A stretch of 64,000 nucleotides of DNA from Chiloscyllium plagiosum (lineage: Eukaryota), in NCBI RefSeq assembly GCF_004010195.1, contig NC_057719.1, positions 63,510,602-63,574,601 of the forward strand. The letters run 5' to 3'. Positions 1,325-53,400 of the stretch are shown piece after piece. Under the pieces are notes generated by a model that had not been told where the DNA came from, made no database searches, and worked only from the letters and a program-made list of their open reading frames with translations. Made by a program: the position numbers and the translations under genes. Position 1 is the first letter of the stretch, and every line of letters begins with the position of its first letter.

Positions 1325-3720
1325 GGACATGAATGTATGAATTGGGAGCTGAAATAAACCAGTCATACCCTCAAGCCTGCTGCACCATTCTGTAAGATCC
1401 TGTCTCATCTGATTATTCTACATCCTTGCCTACTGCAATAATTTGTCACCCCTTTTCTCGTCAAGAATCTATCTACCTCAGCCTTAAAGAAAACTCTACT
1501 TTGATCACCTTTTGAGGAAGGCTTTCAAAGATTCATGACTGTTTGATTTAAAAGACATTCTCCTCAACTTTGCCTTAAATGGGTGATCCTCTGTTTTTAA
1601 ATAGTGACCCCTGATTCTAAAATCTTGCAGCAGTGGAAATATGCTTCCTATGCTTACCCTGCCAAGAATCCTCAGAATCTTAAATGTTTGAATCAAGTCA
1701 CCTGTTACTCTTATAACTCCATCAGATATAAGTTTAGCCTGTCTATCCTTTCCTCATTGGACAAGTAAGGCTTGCCTTATCTGAAAATTCTTTGATCCTT
1801 CTTTTAATAAGGAGACCAATACTTTGCACAGTACTCAAGATGTAGTCTCACCAATCCCTATATAGCTAAAGTATAAGTTAAACTGCCTTACTTTTGGACT
1901 AATTTCCGCTTGTAATAAGTAATAATGTGCTACCGTTCTTAATTACATGTTTTACATGCATACCATAAGACCATAAGACATAGGAGTGGAAGTAAGGCCA
2001 TTCGGCCCATCAAGTCCACTCCGCCATTCAATCATGGCTGATGCGCATTTCAGCTCCACTTACCAGCGTTCTCCCCGTAGCCCTTAATTCCTCGAGACAA
2101 CAAGAATCTATCAATCTCGGCCTTGAAGACATTTAGCGTCCCGGCTTCCACTGCACTCCGTGGCAATGAATTCCACAGGCCCACCACTCTCTGGCTGAAG
2201 AAATGCCTCCGCATTTCTGTTCTGAAATGACCCCCTCTAATTCTAAGGCTGTGTCCACGAGTCCTAGTCTCCTCGTTTAACTGAAACAATTTCCTAGCAT
2301 CCACCTTTTCCAAGCCATGTATTATTTTGTACGTCTCTATTAAGTCTCCCCTTAATCTTCTAAACTCCAACGAATACAATCCCAGTATCCTCAGCCGTTC
2401 CTCATATGTTAGACCTGTCATTCCAGGGATCATTCGTGTGAATCTCCGCTGGACACGTTCCAGTGCCAGTATGTCCTTCCTGAGGTGTGGGGACCAAAAC
2501 TGGACACAGTACTCCAAATGGGGCCTAACCAGAGCTTTATAAAGTCTTAGTAGTACATCTCTGCTTTTATATTCCAACCCTCTTGAGATAAGAGACAACA
2601 TTGCATTCGCTTTCTTAATCACGGACTCAACCTGCATGTTTACCTTTAGAGAATCCTGGACTAGCACTCCCAGATCCCTTTGTGCTTTGGCTTTAAGTAC
2701 TAATCTTTTGTGATTTGTGTACAAGTCACTGAGATCACCCTGCATCTCAGAGGTCTTCAATTTATTATCACTTCGATAATATGCTTTTTTTATGCTTTTT
2801 GCCAAAATGGGCAACTTCACATTTTCCCGCATTATTCTTCATTTGTCAGATACTTGCCCATGCACTTAACCTATCTATATTGTTTTATCGCCTCCTAATT
2901 ACCTCTTCACAACTTAGTTTTCTACCTATCTTAAAAATCTTCAGTAAATTTAACCATGTAATTTATATACATTTCAATAAGTTGAGATACCATCACTTAT
3001 GCCTGTGGCACACAACTCATGGCAACTTGCCAACCCAAAAGACCCAATTGTGCCTACTCTGTTTTTTGTTAGTTATCCAAACTTCTATTCATGCCAATAT
3101 ATCACCTTGGCATCATGGGCTATTATTTTGCACAATAACCTTTCTGGTACACTATTAAATACCTTCTGGATTCACTTTCTCTTTATCCACAGCATGTGTT
3201 ATACCTCAAAGAATTCTAATTGATTGTTTAAACATGATTTCTCCTTAAAAAGATTGATTATCTTGAACATGTCTAAGTGCCCTACATTAACTGCTTTAAA
3301 ATTAGCTTCCAAAATCTTTTCTATGCCAGATGTTCAGCTAACTGACTTGTCATTGGTTTTTACTGCTTTCTGCTGTCTTCCCTCTTGGAATCAAAGAATT
3401 ACTTTGTTATTTTCCAATTTTGCACAAACTTCCACGAATCAAGGATATTTTGGAAAATTAAAATCCAGGTATCAACTATTCTCAGTCACCACTTATTTTA
3501 AAATTCTGGGATGTGATGCATGACGACTCGCGGTCTTGTCAGTCCATAGCTCCAACAGTTGCTCTGTAGCACTTTCCTGGTGATTGCAAGTTTCGAGGGT
3601 CTCTACATTCCTTTGATTTCCTGATTTGCAACTATTTCTGCGATGCTACGTGTCCTTCCTCATGAAGAGTGATGTAAAGTACCTGTTTAGTTCATCTGTT
3701 GTCTCCTTATTTTCCATTTT
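1325..3720 (-). mobile_element. Old, degenerate CR1 LINE interrupted by a younger CR1 at 1963-2695
   Basis: Degenerate 3' tail near 1330-1420. RT C-terminal remnants in the ORF at 1505-1696 ('FRIRGHYLK...LRRMSF'). CR1-like sequence resumes after 2696. Confidence 0.7.
1963..2695 (-). mobile_element. Young 5'-truncated CR1 LINE (ORF2 C-terminus and 3' UTR)
   Basis: ORF 2050-2832 contains 'QRDLGVLV...LYKALVRPHLEYCVQFWSP...LERVQRRFTRMIPG...RRLRGDLIETYKI...TRGH...FFSQRVVGLWNSLP'. The 8-nt tail repeat (CATAAGAC)n lies at 1963-1982. Confidence 0.95.
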
Positions 3721-19919: not shown

Positions 19920-20823
19920 CAAAGCATAGACTATGCACCAAAATTGGAGGTGTTGCAGGCAGTGAATAATTACAATGGGATCTTGATCAGATGGGCCAAT
20001 CGGCTGAGAAGTGGCAGTGGAGTTTAATTTAGATAAATGTGAGGTGCTGCATTTTGGGAAAGCAAATCTTAGCAGAACTTATATACTTAATGGTAAGGTC
20101 CTCGGGAGTATTGCTGAACAAAGAGACCTTGGAATGCAGGTTCATAGCTCCTTGAAAGTGGAGTTGCAGGTAGATATGATAGTGAAGAAGGCGTTTGAAA
20201 TGCTTTTCTTTATTGGTCAGAGTATTGAGTACAGGAGTTGGGAGGTCATGTTGCAACTGTACAGATTGGTTAGGCCACTGTTGGAATATTACATGCAGTT
20301 TTGGTCTCCTTCCTATCAGAAAGATGTTGTGAAACTTGAAAGGGTTCAGAAAAGATTTACAAGGATGTTGCCAGGGTTGGAGGATTTGAGCTATAGGGAG
20401 AGGCTGAACATGCTGGGGTTGTTTTGCCTGGAGCGTCGGAAGCTGAGGGGTGACCTTGGAGAGGTTTACAAAATCATGAGGCGCATGGATAGGATAAATA
20501 GACAAAGTATTTTCCTTTGGGTGGGGGAGTCCAGAACTAGAGGGCATAGGTTAGGGTGAGAAGGGAAAGATATAAAAAAGACTTAAGGGGCAACTTTTTC
20601 ACACAGAGGGTGGTGCGTGTATGGAATGAGCTGCCAGAGGAAATGGTGGAGGCTGGTGCAATTGCAACATTTAAGAGGCATCTGGATGGGTATATGAATA
20701 GGAAGGGTTTAGAGGAAAATGGCCCAGATACTGCAGGTGGGACTAGATTGGGTTGGGATATCCGGACGGCATGGACGAGCTGGACCGAAGGGTCTGTTTC
20801 CATGCTGTATATCTCTATAACTC
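19920..20823 (+). mobile_element. 5'-truncated CR1 LINE (ORF2 C-terminus, frameshifted)
   Basis: ORFs 20011-20559 and 20556-20834 contain 'FNLDKCEVLHFG...QRDLG...VRPLLEYYMQFWSP...LRGDL...FFTQRVVRVWNELP'. The tail is 'gggtctgtttccatgctgtatatctctataactct'. Confidence 0.95.
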
Positions 20824-21454
20824 TATTAAAGTAATTAACTCAACCTCTCCAAATGTTAGTTAATATTTTCTCCCTCATAAGTTCAAAAACTTTACCCATC
20901 ATTAATGTTAAACTAACTGACCTGTAGTTACTGCTTTCTTGAATGAGGGTGTCACACTGCCACTCTTCAATCCATTAGCATTTCCCCCTCCACACCACAG
21001 CCACCCCACCCCATATTAGAGGAAAACGAAAGATATTGAGGGCTATTCTTCACTTCTAACCCTGGACTGGGTGACTTATCCACTTTAATCATTCAAGCCT
21101 GTTCAGAAATTTCAGCCTCTCAATTTCTGTCTATCCATTACCTCCACCATCACTGCTTCTTCCAAAAATTAAATACTTTGACACTTGTCTCTACAGTAGT
21201 AGAAACCAGTACAAACTTCTAGCCTTGTCCTGAATCTCTGAGTGTTTCACTCTCAGAATCCCACTTAGCATTTATATGCCTGGAAAAGTTTTTTTGGTTC
21301 CGGTTTATGTGATCTGCCATTCTGTTCTCATGTTCACTCTTTGCCAATCTTATTTCCTCTTCACTCTCTTCTCCCCCCACCACCCCCAACCCCTATCTAC
21401 AAAATTTGTTCTCATTTGAAAATTCAATTAATATGCATCAAACATCCTCTTCAA

Positions 21455-25737: not shown

Positions 25738-26300
25738 TGTTGAAGAAATTCTCTAGGAGTCAGACCTTGAGCATTAATAGACTTTATTACATGTTCTTGG
25801 GGAATATGTCATGCCTCACTGAGGGGGGGGGGTGTGGGGTGTGGTGGGGAGGCAGGCATAGTCTGGTGTAATACAAAATCTTACAGTTTATATAGTGTAT
25901 TAAGCAGGGGCTGACTATCACTCACGAAAGTCATGAGGTCGAGTGATATCAACGGTCAGTCCAAGTTGTGCTCATAGATGTTTCCTTATCAAGCGGGGCT
26001 GAAGGATTAGCAAACACTCTATGTTTGCACCAGGTCCTGCAAGAATCGGGAAGATAAGTGACACAGGCTACAGGAATCAGAACGATAAGTGACACAATGA
26101 GCCATACATCATTACAAAAGCAGAACTAGTCTAGGTCTGGGGGAAAGCAAGGATTCTCAAGTAGTTGCAAGGTTATTTTAGCAAAACAGCTAAGGCAGCA
26201 CTTCTCCAAACAGGAATGTCAGCAATTTTTGCTTTGCCCTGTGAGACCAGTTATGTGACAAGATTGCTGCAGTTTGAGGGTGCCAAATTCTCCTCCACCA
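25738..26300 (-). mobile_element. ERV 3' LTR (about 563 bp)
   Basis: Starts TG directly after the PPT and ends ...AATTTCTTCAACA. Imperfect terminal inverted repeat (TGGTGGAGGAGAATT versus TGTTGAAGAAATT). TATATAAA at 25894-25887 and AATAAA at 25788-25783. A 13-bp U3 repeat GATAAGTGACACA occurs at 26053 and 26084. Confidence 0.8.
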
Positions 26301-26312
26301 TCCTTCCTCTTT

Positions 26313-27900
26313 GATCACAAGATCAAATGAGTAAATCAGAAAAGCAGATTGGGAGATTCTGCAAATGGGGGTATCTGGTGGTGGGGGTTCAGAATCATAA
26401 AAATAAACCTCGAGCTTTGTGGCGGAGGGAACCGAGGGCAGCAATGCCTGGGGCTCTGTGTCAAGGTAGGAGTGTTCCACAAAGGGTATCCTAGCTAACT
26501 GCACGGTCAGGGGGTTGGAGAGGGGCGTGGCCAGTTTGTTTAGAAGAATTTTACAGCCAGTATTTAAGCAAGTACTGGCAATATAACACACAATGTTATT
26601 AACAACAATAATGATTAGTCGATGCAATAAATAGGACCCCCCAGGATCCTCCTAGTAGCCATCCCAGCCAGCCATCTTCTGCCTTGGGACCTTGCCTGAA
26701 ATCATCCAACTGATTCCGGATAGATTGATAACATGAGTAATGTTGAATAATTCATCCCTAACATGGGTAATACATTTATTCCCTACAATTGTACACACTC
26801 CTCTTTGTTGGGCCAGTTGATAATCCTCAGCATATCTGGTCTGCTGGGCGTAGAGCCGTAACTCAGCCAATTCCTTATTAATCGAATCCAATCCCCTCAC
26901 CTTACTGTTTCCAAGAATAGTGAGCCCGCAAATGAGCTAATTTCAGTTCTTGGCTTCTATTGTCCCTGCCAAGCCTCCCAGGGATAAGGCCCCTCGAAAC
27001 CTATGGCCAAGGGAGGATTCCAGAGTCACCGGATCCTTCCAGTCTGCGCAAAATTCTTCACTATTACTGCAGGTAACTATTTTGCAACAAAACTGTGCTT
27101 GCTGTGGGCATAGGATAGTGATTGGTCCTGTGGTCCCTACTGCAAACAGGACCGGGAGAGTCAAGGTAGCCATAGTAAAAGAGCCGTTAAGAAGGAAGAC
27201 AAACCCTGGCTTGGCCCGATAACATTTAACCTCTCTCTATTCTTATTTCTTGAACTGAATGTATCTCCAGTTACTCTCCTGCTTGGAGTTTCCCCCTGCT
27301 CCAATCAGTTGGTAGCTATTAAAGGGATATGACCAAGCAGCTGAACTGACATGGGTACCATTGCAGTGACCATAAATGAACTGCTGCCCTGCAGTAATGT
27401 TTAAACATCATTCCTTGTCACAGGTGCAAGCGAACCTTCCGTTGCGTTTCTGGCAATGCCAGTGGGCACATTGTCTTTGGACACACAGTGTATTTGTGGG
27501 GATGAGGGCGTATGCCCCACCCTTTCCCTGTAAAACAAAGCAGATAGCTCTTGAGATCAGAGCAAATTGTGCCCGTCCTACCTTGGGTGCCTACACAGTT
27601 GGGGGACTGCGCTCTATTTGAATTTATCAGTTCCACACATTGCCCCAAGGTCAACCTGCGAAAACTACCGTTATGGCCATGCAGGGACTTCGGAGTTGTC
27701 GATGGTGTACAGGCAAAGGGGAGTCTGTCCTGGGATGGCCACAAATAATGCCTCGACTGACTGGGCAAGGGGGTAGCACACGGTCCAATTGCCATGTAAC
27801 TGCACAAAGGTTTTATAAAACAAGTTGTCCTACAGGCCCATTACGGCAAAGGTAGACATACTGCTCCAAAATACAAGTAAAGTCTCCGGGCCAAATGAAG
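26313..27900 (-). pseudogene. env: Decayed retroviral envelope (SU and TM) with an internal fusion loop
   Basis: Cys-rich SU ORFs. TM reads 'FCADWKD...ALSLGGLAGTIEAKN*N*LICGLTILGN...ELAELRLYAQQTRYAEDYQLAQQRGVCTIVGNKCI' (ISD-like segment and CX6C). After frameshifts come a Trp-rich 'GWLGWLLGGSWG', a hydrophobic 'LIIIVVNNIVCYIA' and a cytoplasmic tail. Confidence 0.88.
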
Positions 27901-27980
27901 GGCTCATCACTTATAGTCTCTTAGGTGGCCTCGACACGCTGGTGCTTGAACTTGGGCAGCCTCCTGGCCTCAGTCATCCT

Positions 27981-28797
27981 TTACTTGCCTACTTCATGCT
28001 CCTTGGGTGATGCCACTCGTTTGTGGTGGGTGGTGTGTGTCCACTCGGGTTTTCCCTCAACCTTGACAGTTGTTTGGGTTATGAAGAGGACAAGGTATGG
28101 GCCTTTCCACCTAGGAGAAAAAGCACCCTTTTCAAGTGCTTTGATCATGACATTGTCGCCAGAGTGGAAGGGATGCATGGACTCATCATTAGGAGTAGGA
28201 AGGGCCTCTTTCACTGTGTCATGATTGCGGGCAATTATGGTGTAAAGAGCCTTCACATAATCAAGGAGGGCCTCTAGAGTTAAGAGTAAAGCTGCATCCA
28301 CAGGGAATTTAGGGGTTCTTGCCCCAGTGGACATTGGTCGGCTGATCAATACTTCAAATGGGGTTTGGCCAGGGGTTCTGTTGATCTGTCTACGTATGGT
28401 ATAGAGAGTCAAGGCAGGGCCTCCAGCCTTTTTGAGCCTCCGTATCTTGCACGATTTTTGTCAGAGTGGTTTCGAGAGTGCCATTCATCCGTTCCACCAT
28501 ACTCGAGGATTGAGGTTGGTACGGGAGATGATATTTCCATGCAGTTCCCAGTGCTTTGCAGACGAGTTCAGTGACCGCAGAAGTAAAGTGAGTGCCGCTG
28601 TCACCGTTAATGCCACCTGGGATCACAATTCTAGGAATTATATCTTTCATGAGATATTTGACAACGGTCCTCGCATCAACTTTCCAACTGGAGAATCTTC
28701 TATCAACTTGGAAAACATGTCCACAATTATGAGCATATACTTAAAATTCTGTCTGGCAGGCGTGTGCACAAAATCAACCTGTAGATGATTGAAGGAC
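27981..28797 (-). pseudogene. pol: Retroviral integrase (catalytic core and C-terminal domain), frameshifted
   Basis: 'FNHLQVDFVH...YMLIIVDMFSK', 'IIPR...GDSGTHFT...HLPYQPQSSSMVERMNGTL' (D-D-E triad), 'TPFEVLISRP' and 'PRWKGPYLVL...TTVKVEGKPEWTH' (GPY/F motif). Confidence 0.95.
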
Positions 28798-28799
28798 AA

Positions 28800-28853
28800 T
28801 GTTCAGCGTGGATTAGTTGGACCGAAGTTGTGTTTCCATGCTGTATGACTCTG
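28800..28853 (+). mobile_element. Short CR1 3' tail abutting the ERV truncation point
   Basis: CAGCGTGGATTAGTTGGACCGAAG..TGTTTCCATGCTGTATGACTCT matches the tail at 20765-20823. Confidence 0.75.
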
Positions 28854-29479
28854 TGGCATCATTGCAAGGTTGCTCCATATTCCAAACACTCATAACAACC
28901 ATACATTTTATACATCAAGCATATTATATATAGTATTTGGATTCATGAGTCCATATTCAACCAAATTATGCCAATAAGACATATTCTCAGTTCTTTATGG
29001 TTCCTTCTTTACTAACTTAAAAAGTTAAATTTTGAATCTGAGGGCTGTTCTGTTTATTGCTGGCACAAAGATGTCAAGCTGCTGATCCACACGATTATAA
29101 ACTAGGTCATTCAATAAGTCATGTTACTGCATTCAGTAATATATTGTCAAACATTATACCTGGTCCATTGTATCACTTTATAAAAAACAGTTTATTTACG
29201 AATGTTTAAAATCTGTTGACTTAAGAGTTATTTAGAAATGATGAAACAAGGCATAATTCATAAACAGCATTGCAGCTAATCATGTCAAGATGCACAATAT
29301 TATAGCAGAAATACATTCATGTCAAGCATTGAACTCATGACTTGTTAAGGATTCTTCAAGAGAAACATTTTCAGCAGCACTGTTGGAAAAAAGCTAATTT
29401 GTAACTGAGCAGATGCTTTCTTCAATCCTTAATTTGCATTTCTGTCTGCTGTGTTGAACATGTGTACATCAGGTATTTT

Positions 29480-31134: not shown

Positions 31135-32110
31135 AATCATACGATATAGAAAAGGCCCTTTGGTCTAACAAGTCTACTGCCAGAAATATACAACTACCTA
31201 CACTAGTCCCACTATCCTGCACTAGGCCTAAAGCCTTGAATGTTATGACACTTCACATGCTCATCCAAATACTTTTTAAATGCGGTCAGATTTCCCGCCT
31301 CAACTACCCTCCCAAGCAGTGTATTCCAGACCCCCACCAACTTCTGGGTGAAAATGTTTTCCCTCAAGCACCATCCAACCTTCCTGTCTTTCACTTTAAA
31401 ATTATGCCGATTTGTTATTGGTCATTCAACTAATGTCCAAGTTATATTCCTGTTATATTCGGGCATAAGCCCTTCCTGAAGAAGGGCTTATGCCCGAAAC
31501 GTCGATTCTCCTGTTCCCTGGATGCTGCCTGACCTGCTGCGCTTTTCCAGCAACACATTTCCAGCTCTGATCTCCAGCATCTGCAGACCTCACTTTCTCC
31601 TCATTCAACTAATGGAACAACTGCTTTCTATTCACCCTGTCCATGTCCCTCTATACCTCTATCACGTCCCCCGTCAGCCTTAACTGCTCCAAAGTAAACA
31701 ACCCAAGCTTATCCAGCCCCTCTTCATAACTGAAATGCCCCATTCCAGGCAGGTGAAATTTTTCTGCACCCTCTCCAATGCAATCACATCCTTCCTGTAA
31801 TGTCAGGATGAGAACGGCACAAAATGCTCCATCTGTGGCGGAACTAAAGTTCTCTACAACTCCAACATGTCCTCCCTGCCTATATAATCTGTGCAAAGAC
31901 TGCTAAACACAAGTGTCCTATGTGCCTTCTTGCTATTGTATAATCTGTACCGCCACCTTCAGGGTTAAGCACCCCAAAATTCCTCTCTTCTTTAGAGCTT
32001 CCTAGTGTCTTGTCATTATTAAGTCTTGTTCCTTTTTCCAATGTGTATCACCTCACTTTATCAGAGTTAAATTTAATTTGCCACTGATCTGCCCATCTGA
32101 CCAATCTGGA
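31135..32110 (-). mobile_element. CR1 3' fragment interrupted by a Penelope-like insertion
   Basis: ORFs 31212-31394 ('FTQKLVGVWNTL') and 31651-31896 ('SYEEGLDKLGLFTLEQLRLTGDVIEV'). Confidence 0.85.
31436..31602 (+). mobile_element. Penelope-like pLTR insertion with a 14-bp TSD and a hammerhead core (31476-31503)
   Basis: TSD TCATTCAACTAATG at 31422-31435 and 31601-31614. Core CTGAAGAAGGGCTTATGCCCGAAACGTC. A short inverted copy TTCGGGCATAAGCCCTTC lies at 31458-31475. Confidence 0.88.
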
Positions 32111-37929: not shown

Positions 37930-39167
37930 TAGAACATAGAACAATACAGCACAGAACAGGCCCTTCGGCCCACGATGTTGTGCCGAACATTTGTCCTAGC
38001 TTAAGCACCCATCCATGTACCTATCCAATTGCCGCTTAAAGGTCACCAAAGATTCTGACTCTACCACTCCCACAGGCAGCGCATTCCATGCCCTCACCAC
38101 TGTCTGGGTAAAGAACCCACTCCTGACATCTCCCCTATACCTTCCACCCTTCACCTTAAATTTATGTCCCCTTGTAACACTCTGTTGCACCCGGGGAAAA
38201 AGTTTCTGACTGTCTACTCTATCTATTCCTTTGATCATCCTATAAACCTCTATCAAGTCACCCCTCATCCTTCACCGTTCCAACGAGAAAAGGCAACTGT
38301 GGCCTAACCAAAGTCCTGTACAGCTGCAACATCACTTCACGACTCTTGAGTTCAATCCCTCTGCTAATGAACGATAATACTTCATAGGCCTTCTTACAAA
38401 CTCTATCCACCTGAGTGGCAACCTTCAAAGATCTATGTACATAGACCCCAAGATCCCTCTGTTCCTCCACCTGACTAAGAACCCTACCATTAACCCTGTA
38501 TTCCGCATTCTTATTTGTTCTTCCAACCTCACACTTGGCAGGGTTGAACTCCATCTGCCACTCCTCAGCCCAGCTCTGCATCATATCTAAGTCCCTCTGC
38601 AGCCGACAACAGCCCTCCTCACTGTCCACAACTCCACCTATCTTCGTATCATCTGCAAATTTACTGACCCACCCTTCGACTCCCTCGTCCAAGTCATTAA
38701 TAAAAATTACGAACAGCAGAGGACCCAGAACTGATCCCTGCGGAGCTCCACTTGTAACTGGGCTCCAGGCTGAATATTTACCATCTACTACCACTCTCTG
38801 CCTTCGACCGGTTAGCCGGTTTTCTATCCAATTGGCCAAATTTCCCTCTATTCCATGCCTCCTGACTTTCCGCATAAGCCTACCATGGGGAACCTTATCA
38901 AATGCCTTACTAAAATCCATGTATACTACATCCACTGCTCTACCCTCATCCACATGCTTGGTCACCTCCTCAAAGAATTCAATAAGACTTGTAAGGCAAG
39001 ACCTACCCTTCACAACTCCGTGCTGGCTGTCCCTAATCAAGTAGTGTCTTTCCAGATACTCATAAATCCTATCCCTCAGTACCCTTTCCATTACTTTGCC
39101 TACCATCGAAGTAAGACTAACTGGCCTATAATTCCCGGGGTTATCCCTATTCCCTTTTTTGAACAGG
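37930..39167 (-). mobile_element. Young CR1 LINE with RT core and an internal deletion
   Basis: ORF 38258-39106 has 'SQHG..KGRSCLT', 'YMDFSKAFDKVPH', 'GAPQGSVLGPLLF' and 'KFADDTK'. ORF 37996-38268 is the C-terminus. (TAGAACA)n tail. The 'HLEY...LERVQ...Y.ERL' block is missing at about 38295. Confidence 0.96.
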
Positions 39168-39257
39168 ACACACTTTCCCTTTTCCCCATCCTACCTGATT
39201 CCAGGTCTGTAGGAATCAGAGGGACAAGAGTGGGTTATTTGAGTCCTTCAGTATGAT

Positions 39258-39475: not shown

Positions 39476-40116
39476 CCTAGCTTACCTGCACCTGAATTCT
39501 ATTCACTTATTTTAGTTATATATTCATTGATGCCATTAACTAACTGAAATGTTGATCTGAGTCTGGAATATTTGATCAGACATGCATTCCTTTTTGGGGA
39601 ATGAATTTCATGTTTCACATACCTTTTGTTTGAAAAAGTGCTTCTTAATTTCACCTTTAAACTAGCTGACCTCCACTTTTAAAGTTGTGGACTTCCCCGA
39701 ATAGAGAAAATGTATTTGCCTTATCAAATCACTACACTATAGAAATAGAAGTTACTACTTTGCATGATGGCAACACTTTCAATTTCATATTTAACATGGT
39801 CAGAGAATTATCATTGAGGCAGTTGCCTTTGATAGCTTGAGTATGATTATGAGAAGAGTATAGTTCAGAAAACATGGGGGCAAAACAAGGTTGATAAAGT
39901 GCTTGTTTACCTTACTCACTTTCCTTTGCCTATGTGTTTTTCTGCTCTTTTACGTTAAATATACATTTTCATAACTACTTCCATCTCTTATTTGAAACTA
40001 AAATCTCATTCCATTGCTTTAAATTCCAGATTGACTTCCAAATAAATTAAGCTAGTATTGATGCCATATTGCAGGTGGTACTGAAATTGTACTAAGCAGA
40101 GTGTTGGTTGAATGAG

Positions 40117-40341
40117 TTGAAACTTTATTGCTGGAACAGCACAGCAGGTCAGGCAGCATCCAGGGAACAGGAGATTCGACGTTTCGGGCACAGGCCCTTC
40201 TTCAGGAATGATTCCTGAAGAAGGGCCTGTGCCCGAAACGTCGAATCTCCTGTTCCCTGGATGCTGCCTGACCTGCTGTGCTGTTCCAGCAATAAAGTTT
40301 CAACTTTGATCTCCAGCATCTGCAGACCTCACTTTCTCCTC
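40117..40341 (+). mobile_element. Penelope-like insertion: pLTR preceded by its inverted partial copy, with a 15-bp TSD
   Basis: TSD TGTTGGTTGAATGAG at 40102-40116 and 40342-40356. Perfect inverted arms at 40115-40209 and 40211-40305. Confidence 0.92.
40210..40247 (+). ncRNA. Minimal hammerhead ribozyme (best-formed copy, mirrored on the minus strand at 40178-40205)
   Basis: Stem I GAUUC (40210-40214)/GAAUC (40243-40247), CUGAAGA-A, stem II GGGC-CUGU-GCCC, GAAA-C-GUC. Confidence 0.7.
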
Positions 40342-47938: not shown

Positions 47939-48437
47939 AAACTTGAAAGAATTTTGTACCTGAACCTAGTTCCCTCTTCTCTACAACACCACCCAAGGGT
48001 CTACTATGAATTGCATAAACCCTACCCTTGCTTGTTGTACCAAAATGAAAATAGTCATGCACTGTGTTCTTAAATTGCTGGATTCCTTGTGGGTGTAAGT
48101 ACACCCATTATTCTGTTAGAGAGTTCTAGCAATTTGATACAATGGCAGTGAAGACAGTAATAATGTTCCAACTCAGAATGATATGTTGCTTAGAGAGGAT
48201 CTTGCTGGAGATGGTATTCCAAAGTATCTGCTGCCCTTGTCTTTCTTGGTGGTAGAGGTTGTGGGTTTTACAGGTGCTTTTGAACAAACATTAGGAAATT
48301 ATACAGATCAATTTGTAGATGGTACACACTGCTGTGAGTGTATATTGATGGGGCACCAATCAAGAGGGTGCCTTTGTCCTAGATGGTTTCAAACATGGTG
48401 AGTGTTCTTCAACATCTTGGTTGACAATCCAGTGAGG

Positions 48438-48937
48438 GAAAAAGTGAGGTCTGCAGATGCTGGAGATTAGAGCTGGAAATGTGTTGCTGGAAAAACGCAG
48501 CAGGTCAGGCAGCATCCAGGGAACAGGAGAATCGACGTTTCGGGCATAAGCCCTTCTTCAGGAAAGAGGGAAGTTTGTCCAGCAGGCTAAGATAAAAGGT
48601 AGGGAGGAGAGACTTGGGAGAGGGACGTCGGAAATGTGATAGGTGGAAAGAGGTCAAGGTGAGGGTGATAGGTCAGACTGGGGTGGGGGCGGAGAGGTCG
48701 GGAAGAAGATGGACTAAGGGGGACAGGACGGTGTCAAGTGACCTATCACCCTCACCTTGACCTCTTTCCACCTATCACATTTCCGACGCCCCTCCCCCAA
48801 GTCCCTCCTCCCTACCTTTTATCTTAGCCTGCTGGACAAACTTTCCTCATTCCTGAAGAAGGGTTTATGCCCGAAACGTCGATTCTCCTGTTCCCTGGAT
48901 GCTGCCTGACCTGCTGCGCTTTTCCAGCAACACATTC
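48438..48937 (-). mobile_element. Penelope-like insertion: pLTR (-) plus inverted partial pLTR (+), with a TSD and two hammerhead cores
   Basis: CAATCCAGTGAGGGAA at 48425-48440 and 48938-48953. Inverted arms of about 200 bp (about 48478-48675 and 48739-48937). Cores at 48534-48561 (-) and 48853-48880 (+). Confidence 0.9.
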
Positions 48938-48999
48938 CAATCCAGTGAGGGAAGTTGGAAGATTTAAGCTGCTATCTTTTTGACGAGAGCCTACTAAGT

Positions 49000-50462: not shown

Positions 50463-53400
50463 TTTCATTTGGATATGCCTACTCAACTTCCTCAGTAGGC
50501 ATAATGGGATGTGTTCAAATATTCCCTCCCTGAATCCTTGGGGAAAAATTTACCCAAGTGGAATTCTGCAGATTTTCAGTTTACTCGTGAAGATGGCCTG
50601 TGGGAATTTTCCAAGGGCGGTTTATAAGAGCTGTTTCTTTACAGCAGTCCCTAGCCGATTCAAGGAAGTTCCAGGAGATCTAAAATACTTTGATTAATGC
50701 CAGAAAAACCTTGCCTTCCATCAATGAAGACACACAATTTTGCAATAATGTATCTAATACCATCTCGAAGGATTGCAATGTTGCAGTCTTCATCACAAAC
50801 TCCAGAATCAAAAAAAAGATATCAGTGTATCTAGCCTCCTTCCCACTTCCCTCAGTTTAGTTGTGTGTACTTCTAGTTTTACTTGGCCCCATTGCCTCAA
50901 GCAATTGATCAAAAAGAATACTACTGATGCCTTTAATAGTTCTAAGTAACTGAATCAGATCCTGTCCAATTTCACTATCTTCCTGTGAATCTAACACAAG
51001 ATCCAATTCATTAATAATCATAATAAATGGGTGGGAAGAATAAAACATTGAACTATGGACCAATCCCAAAAGTGACGTGATCCAATTGAAAGAATCCTAC
51101 TTCAAATCAGTCCCTGCTTGAATGTAGATATTTTAACTTAATTTTAACACACTGAATCTTTGCTAGCACTTTATCAAAAGCTTTCAGAAATACAAACTGA
51201 TAAGTTCTACCAGATCTTCATTTATCTGCCATTCCTATATCTAAATATTGGATGAAGTTTGTCAAATAACCTTTGTTTTCTGAATGTTTTCAGCGCTGTA
51301 TGAACTATGAACATTCCATATGGTCATCAGTGGAATCCTTAATGATGCTTTATGCGAAATTCCCTATCAAAGAGGTTAAGTTCAGAAGTGTGCTGGAGCA
51401 AGGTTTGTTTTTATTTAAAATATACACCATTCATGCCATCTTCTGAATATATAGCAGTTCTATTCTTGCTGAATTTTTGAATGGTACTTATTCCAGCATT
51501 ACTTCAGCAATTTTCCTCAGAATCCTAGATTAAATTAAATTTGCAACTTTTCCTTCCCCTCAATGTCTTTCATGCAGTTTCACTTGAGATATGCAAGCAG
51601 CCCATTTGGATTTTTTTTTCACTTATCCATTATACAAATGGATAATGCAATATTTTTACGTGATAATATGAACAAATTATCTGTTCAAATTTCTTGTTGT
51701 CTATAATTTTGGCCATCATCCTCCACACACCTTGTTTATTGTTTGCCTCATAACATTTAACAATTTCGTTCCCATTATTTTTCAGTTGTTCTCCTTTCTC
51801 AATTTATTGTAGTGCACTTACTATTTCCTTTTATTAACATCATCTACTTTTGTATTACGTTTTAATTAACTATTCTTGAAACTTAACTCTTTGTTAGCTT
51901 GGAAACAAATGGACCGTTTAAAGTACAATTGTTTAGAACCCATTATTGAGAATATTTTCCTAGGACTTTGAAGCCTATCACTCTTCCCGCTTCAGCACAC
52001 AGACAGCTGCCTTTTATCTCCAAGTGTAAGCACCAATACCTTCTACCCAGTAAAATAATTTAGATCCTCTCTAACTCTGACAATCAAACTGCCCAAGCTT
52101 GCTATCAGGCAAAATAAGTCACACTACCCCTTTCATTTTATCTTAACAGTCTTATAAATCACATAATTGCAACACAGGAGACATGAAAAATTCTATTTGA
52201 AAATCAGCAGGCAGGTGGGTCTAGTTCATCTTGGGAACATGGTTTCATAGACTGGTTGGACCGAAGGGTCTATTTTCATGCTGTATGGCTGTATCTCTAT
52301 TTATTGGTAGATGTATGTTTAAGAACAAAAATAAAGCTAATTAGCCATTTTTTTTGAAAGCTACAGCATTTTATAGAACACAATAATTATCACTGAGGTG
52401 AATACATAAATACTTTGATTCTAAATGTAGAGATTTGGTGATAGAGGGCGAACAGATTGTAAGCAAAGTAAATAAGTAAAGGGTTACTTTGCACCCAAAT
52501 GTCAAAGTTCTTCCAACTTAATATTCATTAGTTAGTTGTGAAGCACTTGAACGCATATCTGGGTGATGTGATCAAGTCTTACATAAATGTTAGGGTTTTG
52601 TCTATTTTTATGATAACCTGTTACTCTTAAAATATGTTATGCCCTAATTATAAATACATTATTTCCAAAGCTTAGGCATTATTATTCTGTCTTCATGTTT
52701 TAGGTTCATTAAATCATTGTTAACTTTAAGGAGATGCACTTATGATAAATGTGAAAATTCTTTTCTCCTTCTGATCCTTTTACAATGTTCCAGTAGTTTT
52801 TCTGGCAGCATAATGTTCCATCATTCTCATTTATTGTAACACTTGTCATTTGTATTACTTCCCTGGGCACATAAATTTTCTAATGTGCTTGAATTTGACA
52901 TGCTTCAACTTCTGGTTTTTATTTATTTTCACTTCCATTGGTGCCTTTGCTCAGTTGTGATTAAATTTTTTCTATTTATCTGAAAAACCCTTCACCACCA
53001 CACACTGAGTTCATGCTCATCAGGAGACATATTATAATTCATTGCCACATTTCAGCTTGTTGATGTTTTCACTTACTTCATTTTGGTTTTAAAAAGAAGC
53101 TATTTTATTCTTAATATTTGATAGTCTCTTTCTGTCTGCAAGAAGAAAAAGCCTTGCTAAAGACTTTCAATTGATAACCATCAGAACTTTGCTCCAAACA
53201 CATTGATTTCATTTAGTGTTTAATATTTCAAATTGTATGTTTTAAACAAACTTCATATTTGTTTAGAAAAGACTATCTCAAATCCATTAAATTCAAATGT
53301 AGTTTTGAGCACACTGCAACTTCTTTTAACTTTCAGATGCATGTAGGTTCAGTGACTGAAAGAATAATCTGTAAAGTCACAATGCTGTTTCTTTTCTTAA

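What the first reader, a model, noticed from the sequence alone, without database searches (positions are those of the whole stretch)
25738..28797. Possible pol/env discordance: class I-type integrase coupled to an ASLV/filovirus-type TM
Seen: the integrase motifs (HLQVDF, IIPR, H.PY.PQSS..VERMN, TPFEVL..RP, WKGPY.VL...T.VKV.G...W.H) are typical of epsilon/gamma-like class I retroviruses, while the TM follows the internal-loop plan. Inference: env was swapped by recombination, or this env type is ancestral in an under-sampled chondrichthyan retrovirus clade.
Basis: partly seen in the sequence, partly recalled or inferred. Interest (0 to 1): 0.7.

Follow-up and report, generated by a model that had tools for sequence, protein, structure and literature searches.

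The report
Shark retrovirus with swapped filovirus-like envelope
This is the broken tail end of an old shark retrovirus whose envelope gene resembles the fusion protein of Ebola and Marburg viruses and was likely swapped in from another shark retrovirus; both this envelope type in sharks and envelope swapping in fish retroviruses are already published.

Summary
Window 25738-28797 (minus strand) is a dead, 5'-truncated provirus: integrase, env, polypurine tract, 3' LTR. The listed integrase motifs and the cysteine-flanked internal fusion loop are real. The TM is filovirus-like, not ASLV-like: best solved-structure hits are filovirus GP2; for an intact relative ASLV TM scores E~1; and the motif is CX6C without the third cysteine. 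Discordance is shown inside this genome. The integrase is 71-72% identical (DNA) to proviruses with an ordinary gamma-type env; the env is 66-72% identical to proviruses of a distant pol lineage; a third, still more distant pol also carries this env type. Monophyly of its carriers on the integrase tree is rejected (p-AU 0.0016). Direction of transfer is inferred only. The env type matches the cartilaginous-fish filovirus-like ectodomains of PMC11521997, and pol/env incongruence in anamniotes is reported (bioRxiv 2021.11.23.469661), so this is a new member of a known kind. I did not find in print: the three-backbone mosaic, or surface-subunit homology linking shark env, Mabuya Env2 and Tapajos virus GP (with a weak predicted GP1-like fold).

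The parts
25738..26300 (-). 3' LTR, 563 bp, TG...CA, AATAAA at 25788-25783
   Evidence: sequence; local alignment to LTRs of L011, L012, L014 scores 346-441 vs shuffle max 34; no similarity to pol2 or pol3 LTRs
26301..26312 (-). polypurine tract
   Evidence: shared with L011, L027, L028
26400..27907 (-). env pseudogene of the filovirus-like type (envA): signal peptide from ATG 27907, short Cys-rich SU, TM; 6 stops and 4 frameshifts; 3' end approximate
   Evidence: 66% aa identity over 405 residues to P0001 when read with X at breaks; tblastn
26930..27052 (-). Cys-flanked internal fusion loop (EFC...LICGL)
   Evidence: both Cys invariant across 12 proteins incl. filovirus GP, Tapajos GP, Mab-Env2
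26769..26918 (-). HR1, ISD-like stretch and C-X6-C-I loop (no third Cys)
   Evidence: PF22307 E 0.011, below cut-off in this decayed copy
26560..26635 (-). membrane-spanning segment of TM (approximate)
   Evidence: hydrophobic stretch in ORF 26190-26651; aligned to siblings
27981..28797 (-). integrase core (D,D,E letters kept) and MLV-type C-terminal domain; N-terminal zinc finger and all upstream pol/gag missing
   Evidence: only pol hit in the whole window is 28793-27984
28800..28856 (+). short 3' tail of a LINE-type repeat at the truncation point
   Evidence: aligns with the repeat ends at 20755-20830 and 52230-52305, mean column identity 76%; CR1 label is recalled

Best explanation
This is a decayed, 5'-truncated copy of a class I-like shark endogenous retrovirus that is a mosaic: its integrase, polypurine tract and LTR end match one virus lineage, while its filovirus-like env matches another and was likely acquired as a cassette by recombination. 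Shown: three distant pol lineages in this genome (pol1, the window's; pol2; pol3) carry the same env type (envA), and pol1 also occurs with an ordinary furin-site/CX6CC env (envB). Inferred: template switching between co-packaged genomes replaced the stretch from the env start (~27930-28030) to the cytoplasmic tail (~26530-26400), most simply a pol1/envB virus taking envA from a pol2-type virus (about 65% for this direction). Inferred from motifs: the Env was a class I fusogen with an internal disulfide-closed fusion loop like filovirus GP2, whose SU and TM were likely not joined through the TM loop, because the third cysteine is absent. The copy itself is dead and has no evident function.
For: Mosaic map: window 28795-28034 matches envB carriers L027-L030 at 70.7-71.9% DNA (4 of 4) and no pol2 locus (0 of 8); 27928-26510 matches pol2 loci L019-L026 at 66-75% (8 of 8) and no envB carrier (0 of 4); PPT and LTR end match L027 and L028 again (79-88%, 2 of 4). 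Integrase tree: pol1 99/100, pol2 98/99; window IN 61-64% aa to envB carriers, 25-31% to pol2; envA carriers as one clade rejected, p-AU 0.0016. RT tree: three starred groups, 22-40% identity between, 51-76% within. Env tree: pol1 env + pol2 env 100/99; equally decayed pol3 envs group elsewhere (with P0002, P0008), so shared decay does not explain the grouping. TM trees: window TM in the shark/ray clade (95/89), L027 TM among ordinary CX6CC envs. The pol1-envA junction is native to a family: L011 and L012 have it with RT upstream, L012 with gag-like zinc knuckle, LTR remnant and tRNA-Ser PBS. Third Cys absent in 12 of 12 and 19 of 19 copies with data.
Against: Relationships inside pol1 are unresolved, so envA and envB carriers cannot be ordered and the direction is parsimony only. 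No named epsilon, SnRV or ZFERV references were available; the window's IN core alone does not assign a class (top PDB hits delta- and foamy integrases). EnvB evidence is full TM for L027 and L028, an SU piece for L029, weak for L030 (E 1.6e-4). Loci were the best-scoring hits (20 stretches from 49 matches; 20 from 124), not a census. Rows are decayed copies read with X at breaks.
Confidence: 0.85

Rival explanations
1. EnvA is the ancestral env of pol1 (and of a chondrichthyan retrovirus clade); the envB carriers are the recombinants, and pol2 got envA from pol1.
For: EnvA occurs in bullhead shark, sawshark, catshark, epaulette/bamboo shark and manta records, so it is old; pol1 topology is open.
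Against: Needs two exchanges instead of one among pol1/pol2. Vertical descent cannot explain envA on pol1, pol2 and pol3: pol1 and pol2 env are 56-67% identical while their IN are 20-45% and RT 29-40% identical.
Confidence: 0.25
2. No recombination: pol and env are congruent and the apparent conflict comes from rate differences or decay bias.
For: All G000 copies are heavily decayed; TM alignments are short (115-122 columns).
Against: Env normally diverges faster than pol, yet here it is far more similar between pol1 and pol2; AU test p 0.0016; pol3 envs of similar decay do not join pol1/pol2 envs; sharp mosaic boundaries.
Confidence: 0.04
3. The TM is a filovirus-derived endogenous element inserted next to a retroviral integrase.
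For: Best PDB hits are filovirus GP2.
Against: Signal peptide-SU-TM gene sits at the env position between IN and PPT/LTR in many proviruses; no sequence similarity of SU to GP1; third Cys absent whereas mammalian filoviruses have CX6CC.
Confidence: 0.03

Closest known systems
Cartilaginous-fish retroelements with filovirus-like ectodomains (Nino Barreat & Katzourakis 2024, PMC11521997, Fig. 6 and supplementary table page 8)
   Same: Shark/skate hosts, env position in a retroviral element, Ebola-like HR1-HR2 domain, best viral hits Mengla, Marburg, Lloviu, Tapajos GP.
   Different: In the section and table I read they treat only the ectodomain, 14 chondrichthyan loci, with no pol lineage, SU or third-Cys analysis. 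Their shark+mammalian-filovirus sister group (pp 0.83) is recovered here with only 39/20 support.
Anamniote ERVs with gamma-type Env (Chen et al., bioRxiv 10.1101/2021.11.23.469661)
   Same: Epsilon- or gamma-related class I pol and SnRV-related class III pol with gamma-type env; CXnC variant; pol/env incongruence; cartilaginous fish incl. Chiloscyllium.
   Different: Which of their nine env clades this is could not be seen (figures and supplements closed); their text does not link a shark env to filovirus GP2 specifically.
Avian gamma-type (ASLV) TM (Henzy & Johnson 2013, PMC3758190)
   Same: [quoted passage not shown]
   Different: No CX6CC; ASLV TM scores E~1 against relative P0002 versus 1e-15 for a filovirus GP; no canonical R-X-K/R-R site in this subclade.
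Mabuya lizard Env2 (ATY46612) and Tapajos virus GP (YP_010798909)
   Same: Whole-length relatives: Mab-Env2 E 4e-27 and Tapajos GP E 1e-22 to the shark profile; Cys-flanked loop; no third Cys; SU-only scores shark-Mab2 and Mab2-Tapajos exceed 500 of 500 shuffles.
   Different: CX7C spacing; 23-25% identity; direct shark-Tapajos SU similarity is not significant until Mab2 is added to the profile (7.5 bits, 0 of 100 shuffles).
Filovirus GP1,2 (Marburg, Mengla, Lloviu, Ebola)
   Same: GP2-like HR1/ISD/loop (hhalign prob. 98.9); predicted SU overlays weakly on the GP1 core.
   Different: Filoviruses keep CX6CC and a glycan cap/mucin region; SU and GP1 show no sequence similarity.

Membership tests
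Class I (gamma/epsilon-like) ERV pol | RT closer to MLV than to foamy or class II RT | tested here: met
   Not in the window; sibling L011 RT 86.7 bits MLV-type vs 59.2 foamy; relative P0190 498 vs 183 bits
Class I (gamma/epsilon-like) ERV pol | MLV-type integrase C-terminal domain | tested here: met
   PF18697 E 2.4e-14
Class I (gamma/epsilon-like) ERV pol | Placement with epsilonretroviruses or gammaretroviruses in a reference tree | not testable with these tools
   Only one named class I reference (P0191, Sorex) was returned; IN core search uninformative
Avian gamma-type (ASLV) TM | [quoted passage not shown] | tested here: met
Avian gamma-type (ASLV) TM | CX6CC motif for the SU-TM disulfide | tested here: not met
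   C-X6-C-I in the window; no third Cys in 12 of 12 and 19 of 19 copies or in the shark/ray proteins
Avian gamma-type (ASLV) TM | [quoted passage not shown] | tested here: met
   ISD-like stretch in the window; N-x-T in relatives; the window copy reads N-S-K
Avian gamma-type (ASLV) TM | Canonical furin site before the loop | tested here: not met
   Subclade reads RRIVTR-type; canonical R-X-K-R seen only in P0019 and P0020; protease rule recalled
Avian gamma-type (ASLV) TM | Sequence affinity to ASLV TM | tested here: not met
   4jpr/5h9c E 1.0-1.1 for P0002; ASLV itself was not in the trees
Chondrichthyan filovirus-like ectodomain retroelements (PMC11521997) | Best viral hits are filovirus GP; Ebola-like HR1-HR2 domain | tested here: met
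   PF22307 above cut-off in relatives P0009, P0012, P0018-P0020, below in the window copy
Chondrichthyan filovirus-like ectodomain retroelements (PMC11521997) | Retroviral context in a cartilaginous fish | tested here: met
   IN-env-PPT-LTR; nearest named relatives are sharks and rays
Chondrichthyan filovirus-like ectodomain retroelements (PMC11521997) | Falls in the clade of their Fig. 6 sequences | not testable with these tools
   No such alignment found in the readable supplements; four archives too large to read
Chondrichthyan filovirus-like ectodomain retroelements (PMC11521997) | Sister group of mammalian filovirus GP2 | tested here: inconclusive
   Best tree has it at 39/20; shark+Mabuya+Tapajos not rejected, p-AU 0.456

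The most novel reading that the evidence does not exclude
The shark env family is a whole-gene (SU plus TM) relative of the filovirus spike: a compact, non-covalent, internal-loop envelope cassette that moved among class I and class III-like retroviral backbones in sharks, survives in lizards (Mab-Env2), was captured whole by the snake filovirus Tapajos virus, and supplied GP1 core as well as GP2 to the Ebola/Marburg lineage, which later added the intersubunit cysteine, glycan cap and mucin domain.
Probability: 0.3. Interest if true: 0.72.

Novelty: new member of a known kind. Interest (0 to 1): 0.4.

Why it matters
The locus itself is a dead fragment. Its family matters as a fossil record for the origin of the filovirus entry protein: it supplies hundreds of candidate copies in one genome, shows that the envelope moved as a cassette between distant retroviral backbones, and suggests that the unit shared with filoviruses is the whole envelope gene and not only the heptad-repeat ectodomain. 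It also shows that the cysteine-flanked internal fusion loop, once thought specific to bird retroviruses (PMC3758190), occurs without the SU-TM cysteine in sharks.

Tried and rejected
First fold of P0002 with 7 sequences failed (pLDDT 34). Second fold (27 sequences, pLDDT 50, SU patches 70-80): Foldseek found nothing at E<=0.001 in the PDB, though the listed rows were all filovirus GP at E 0.17-0.68; the wide VIA search was filled by helices, with Marburg GP1 (Z 4.8) the only row covering SU. Atlas structure search gave no TM-score above 0.31; feature search pointed to TLV_coat and Avian_gp85 clusters at 0.92-0.93, a lead only. Homolog search with Tapajos GP returned only itself; integrase search returned 2 proteins. 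Metagenome and viral contig scans gave one weak locus and none, so pol partners in other species were not seen. SU versus GP1 by sequence: not significant. Domestication of this copy rejected: 6 stops, 4 frameshifts. Target-site duplication and LTR dating are impossible for the window copy (no 5' LTR). No upstream gag/RT elsewhere in the window. The Mabuya paper (PMC5754801) was not held and 'Mab-Env2' had no hits.

Full report
Observation. On the minus strand the window holds an integrase (28797-27981), an env pseudogene (ATG 27907 to about 26400), a polypurine tract (26312-26301) and a 563-bp LTR (26300-25738). The env has 6 stops and 4 frameshifts. Upstream, the element ends at a 57-base repeat tail that matches the ends of LINE fragments elsewhere in the window; no other pol sequence lies in the 64 kb. 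The host is a shark by inference from the named relatives (Pristiophorus, Heterodontus, Scyliorhinus, Hemiscyllium, Chiloscyllium, Mobula).

The TM. It has a cysteine pair around a hydrophobic stretch, HR1, an ISD-like stretch and C-X6-C followed by I. Against the PDB the window TM hits filovirus GP2 (best E 1.8e-7) and no retroviral TM. The intact relative P0002 gives 1e-15 for a filovirus GP, 5e-7 for 4n21, 1e-5 for syncytin-2 and about 1 for ASLV TM. A profile of 7 relatives against 1.84 billion proteins found 1068 at E<=0.001; of the 150 listed, the shark/ray group leads, and Mabuya Env2 (4e-27) and Tapajos virus GP (1e-22) rank above Marburg (2e-15) and Mengla (6e-15) GP, with many ordinary CX6CC envs in between. 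The third cysteine is missing in 12 of 12 and 19 of 19 (1 of 20 had no data) genomic copies. So the plan is like ASLV/filovirus, but it fails the CX6CC criterion of the avian gamma-type as defined in PMC3758190 (passages read).

TM trees. With 109 rows (51 of 156 proteins dropped as truncated or lacking the anchor motif) the window TM sits in an 18-row shark/ray clade (SH-aLRT 95). With 49 hand-picked rows this clade has 95/89 and joins mammalian filoviruses, Mabuya+Tapajos (99/95) and a squamate clade in an unresolved group (90/76). Shark+filovirus has 39/20; shark+Mabuya+Tapajos is not rejected (p-AU 0.456).

Is pol discordant with env? I fetched 20 stretches around the best of 49 DNA matches. 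L011 and L012 carry the same integrase-env junction with RT upstream; L012 also has a zinc knuckle, a 5' LTR remnant (86% to its 3' LTR over 132 bp) and a tRNA-Ser primer-binding site. Their RT is MLV-like. L027 and L028 have the same pol lineage with an ordinary RTKR/CX6CC env, L029 an SU piece of it, L030 a weak hit. L019-L026 have the filovirus-like env on a different pol (MLV 79 vs foamy 57 bits). On the integrase tree the two pol lineages are starred, the window is 61-64% identical to the ordinary-env carriers and 25-31% to the second lineage, and one clade of filovirus-like-env carriers is rejected (p-AU 0.0016). Along the element, similarity switches from ordinary-env carriers (28795-28034) to second-lineage proviruses (27928-26510) and back (26341-26295, 25793-25738). 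A protein search found 124 env matches from 97 scored of 2691 candidates. Of the 20 best not already held, none had a clear pol1 or pol2 integrase (19 none, 1 marginal); at least 17 of 20 share a third pol (output partly cut; L045, L046, L050 not seen), the most distant in the RT tree and equidistant from foamy and MLV RT. On the env tree pol1 and pol2 envs are sisters (100/99) and pol3 envs group with other species' proteins.

Mechanism. Shown: mosaic ancestry and sharing of one env type by three pol lineages. Inferred from established retroviral biology: exchange by template switching between co-packaged genomes, with breakpoints near the env start and the cytoplasmic tail. The simplest order is a pol1 virus with ordinary env taking the filovirus-like env from a pol2-type virus; the reverse needs two swaps and is not excluded. 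Inferred from motifs: a class I fusogen with an internal disulfide-closed loop, no SU-TM bond through the TM loop, and a non-canonical maturation site. The copy later lost its 5' part and decayed.

Surface subunit. SU-only comparisons link shark env to Mabuya Env2 (39.6 bits, 0 of 100 shuffles) and Mabuya Env2 to Tapajos GP (0 of 500), but not directly shark to Tapajos and not to GP1. A moderate model of P0002 (pLDDT 50) overlays residues ~24-262 on the Marburg/Ebola GP1 core at Z 4.2-5.4, rmsd 3.1-4.6 A, 85-107 residues; Marburg GP1 was the only SU-covering row in the wide search (Z 4.8). These scores are below the tool's own bar of 8, and a domain shared by all retroviral SU and GP1 is already described (bioRxiv 10.1101/2023.10.07.561363, passages), so this is a lead.

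What is known. PMC11521997 (section 11 read whole, passages, supplementary table page 8, supplement searches; four archives unreadable) reports filovirus-like ectodomains in retroelements of Chiloscyllium, Scyliorhinus, Amblyraja and Leucoraja as sister to mammalian filovirus GP2 (pp 0.83) and Tapajos virus with Mabuya/Varanus. The Chen preprint (parts 1-4 of 6 read, supplements closed) reports epsilon-like, gamma-like and SnRV-like pols with gamma-type env, CXnC variants and frequent recombination in anamniotes. PMC9967133 (passages) states that many fish ERVs with epsilon-like RT carry gamma-type env. PMC8498845 (first of two parts) does not discuss the origin of Tapajos GP. PMC11089739 (passages) notes such cross-hits as ERVs. 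Searches (listings only for papers not named above) did not show the three-backbone mosaic, the missing cysteine in this clade or the SU-level link; unseen supplements and subscription papers may hold them. Earlier scan notes had nothing on this env.

Verdict. Real feature, observation confirmed, swap supported, env type and general phenomenon published. New member of a known kind; interest 0.4.

Noticed in passing
L035-L060 (G000, e.g. C6:180000-189999, C23:14445500-14455499): A third pol lineage carries envA and supplies most of the best env matches; its RT fragment scores equally to foamy and MLV RT (59.8 vs 58.9 bits) and is the most distant group in the RT tree, so it may be class III/SnRV-like.
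   Followed up: partly
P0026 (Tapajos virus GP) and P0022 (Mabuya Env2): They align over nearly their whole length including SU (28% identity, E 3e-40; SU-only score 137 vs shuffle max 63): the snake filovirus seems to have taken a whole env gene.
   Followed up: partly
window 27100-27060; L011-L054: The SU/TM boundary of this subclade reads RRIVTR-type, not R-X-K/R-R; it resembles an SKI-1/S1P site (rule recalled, untested).
   Followed up: no
L012:9210-9260: Primer-binding site matches 17 of 18 bases of a host tRNA-Ser(AGA) 3' end.
   Followed up: yes
   Followed up: no
P0012, P0156, P0034, P0056: A sister subclade of envA has an extra ~150-residue Cys-containing N-terminal domain, in some followed by a basic site, before the shared SU start.
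   Followed up: no
P0110 (Anolis), P0036 (Pseudonaja), P0086, P0152: Squamate envs with a Cys-flanked loop and no third Cys form a further clade in the same group; P0152 is fused in its gene model to Gag_p24 and dUTPase.
   Followed up: no
BFVD hit V5NYT7: Chelonid alphaherpesvirus 5 F-env is the top viral-model match of the shark env model (E 5.5e-5); its link to shark ERV envs is noted in the Chen preprint.
   Followed up: no
window 2050-2838, 20008-20834, 38258-39190; 37-312, 31362-31602, 40114-40341, 48437-48979: LINE fragments (RVT_1 E 8e-35 for 38261-39190) and a short repeat family, twice as head-to-head inverted pairs. No host coding ORF of 150 aa or more was evident.
   Followed up: no
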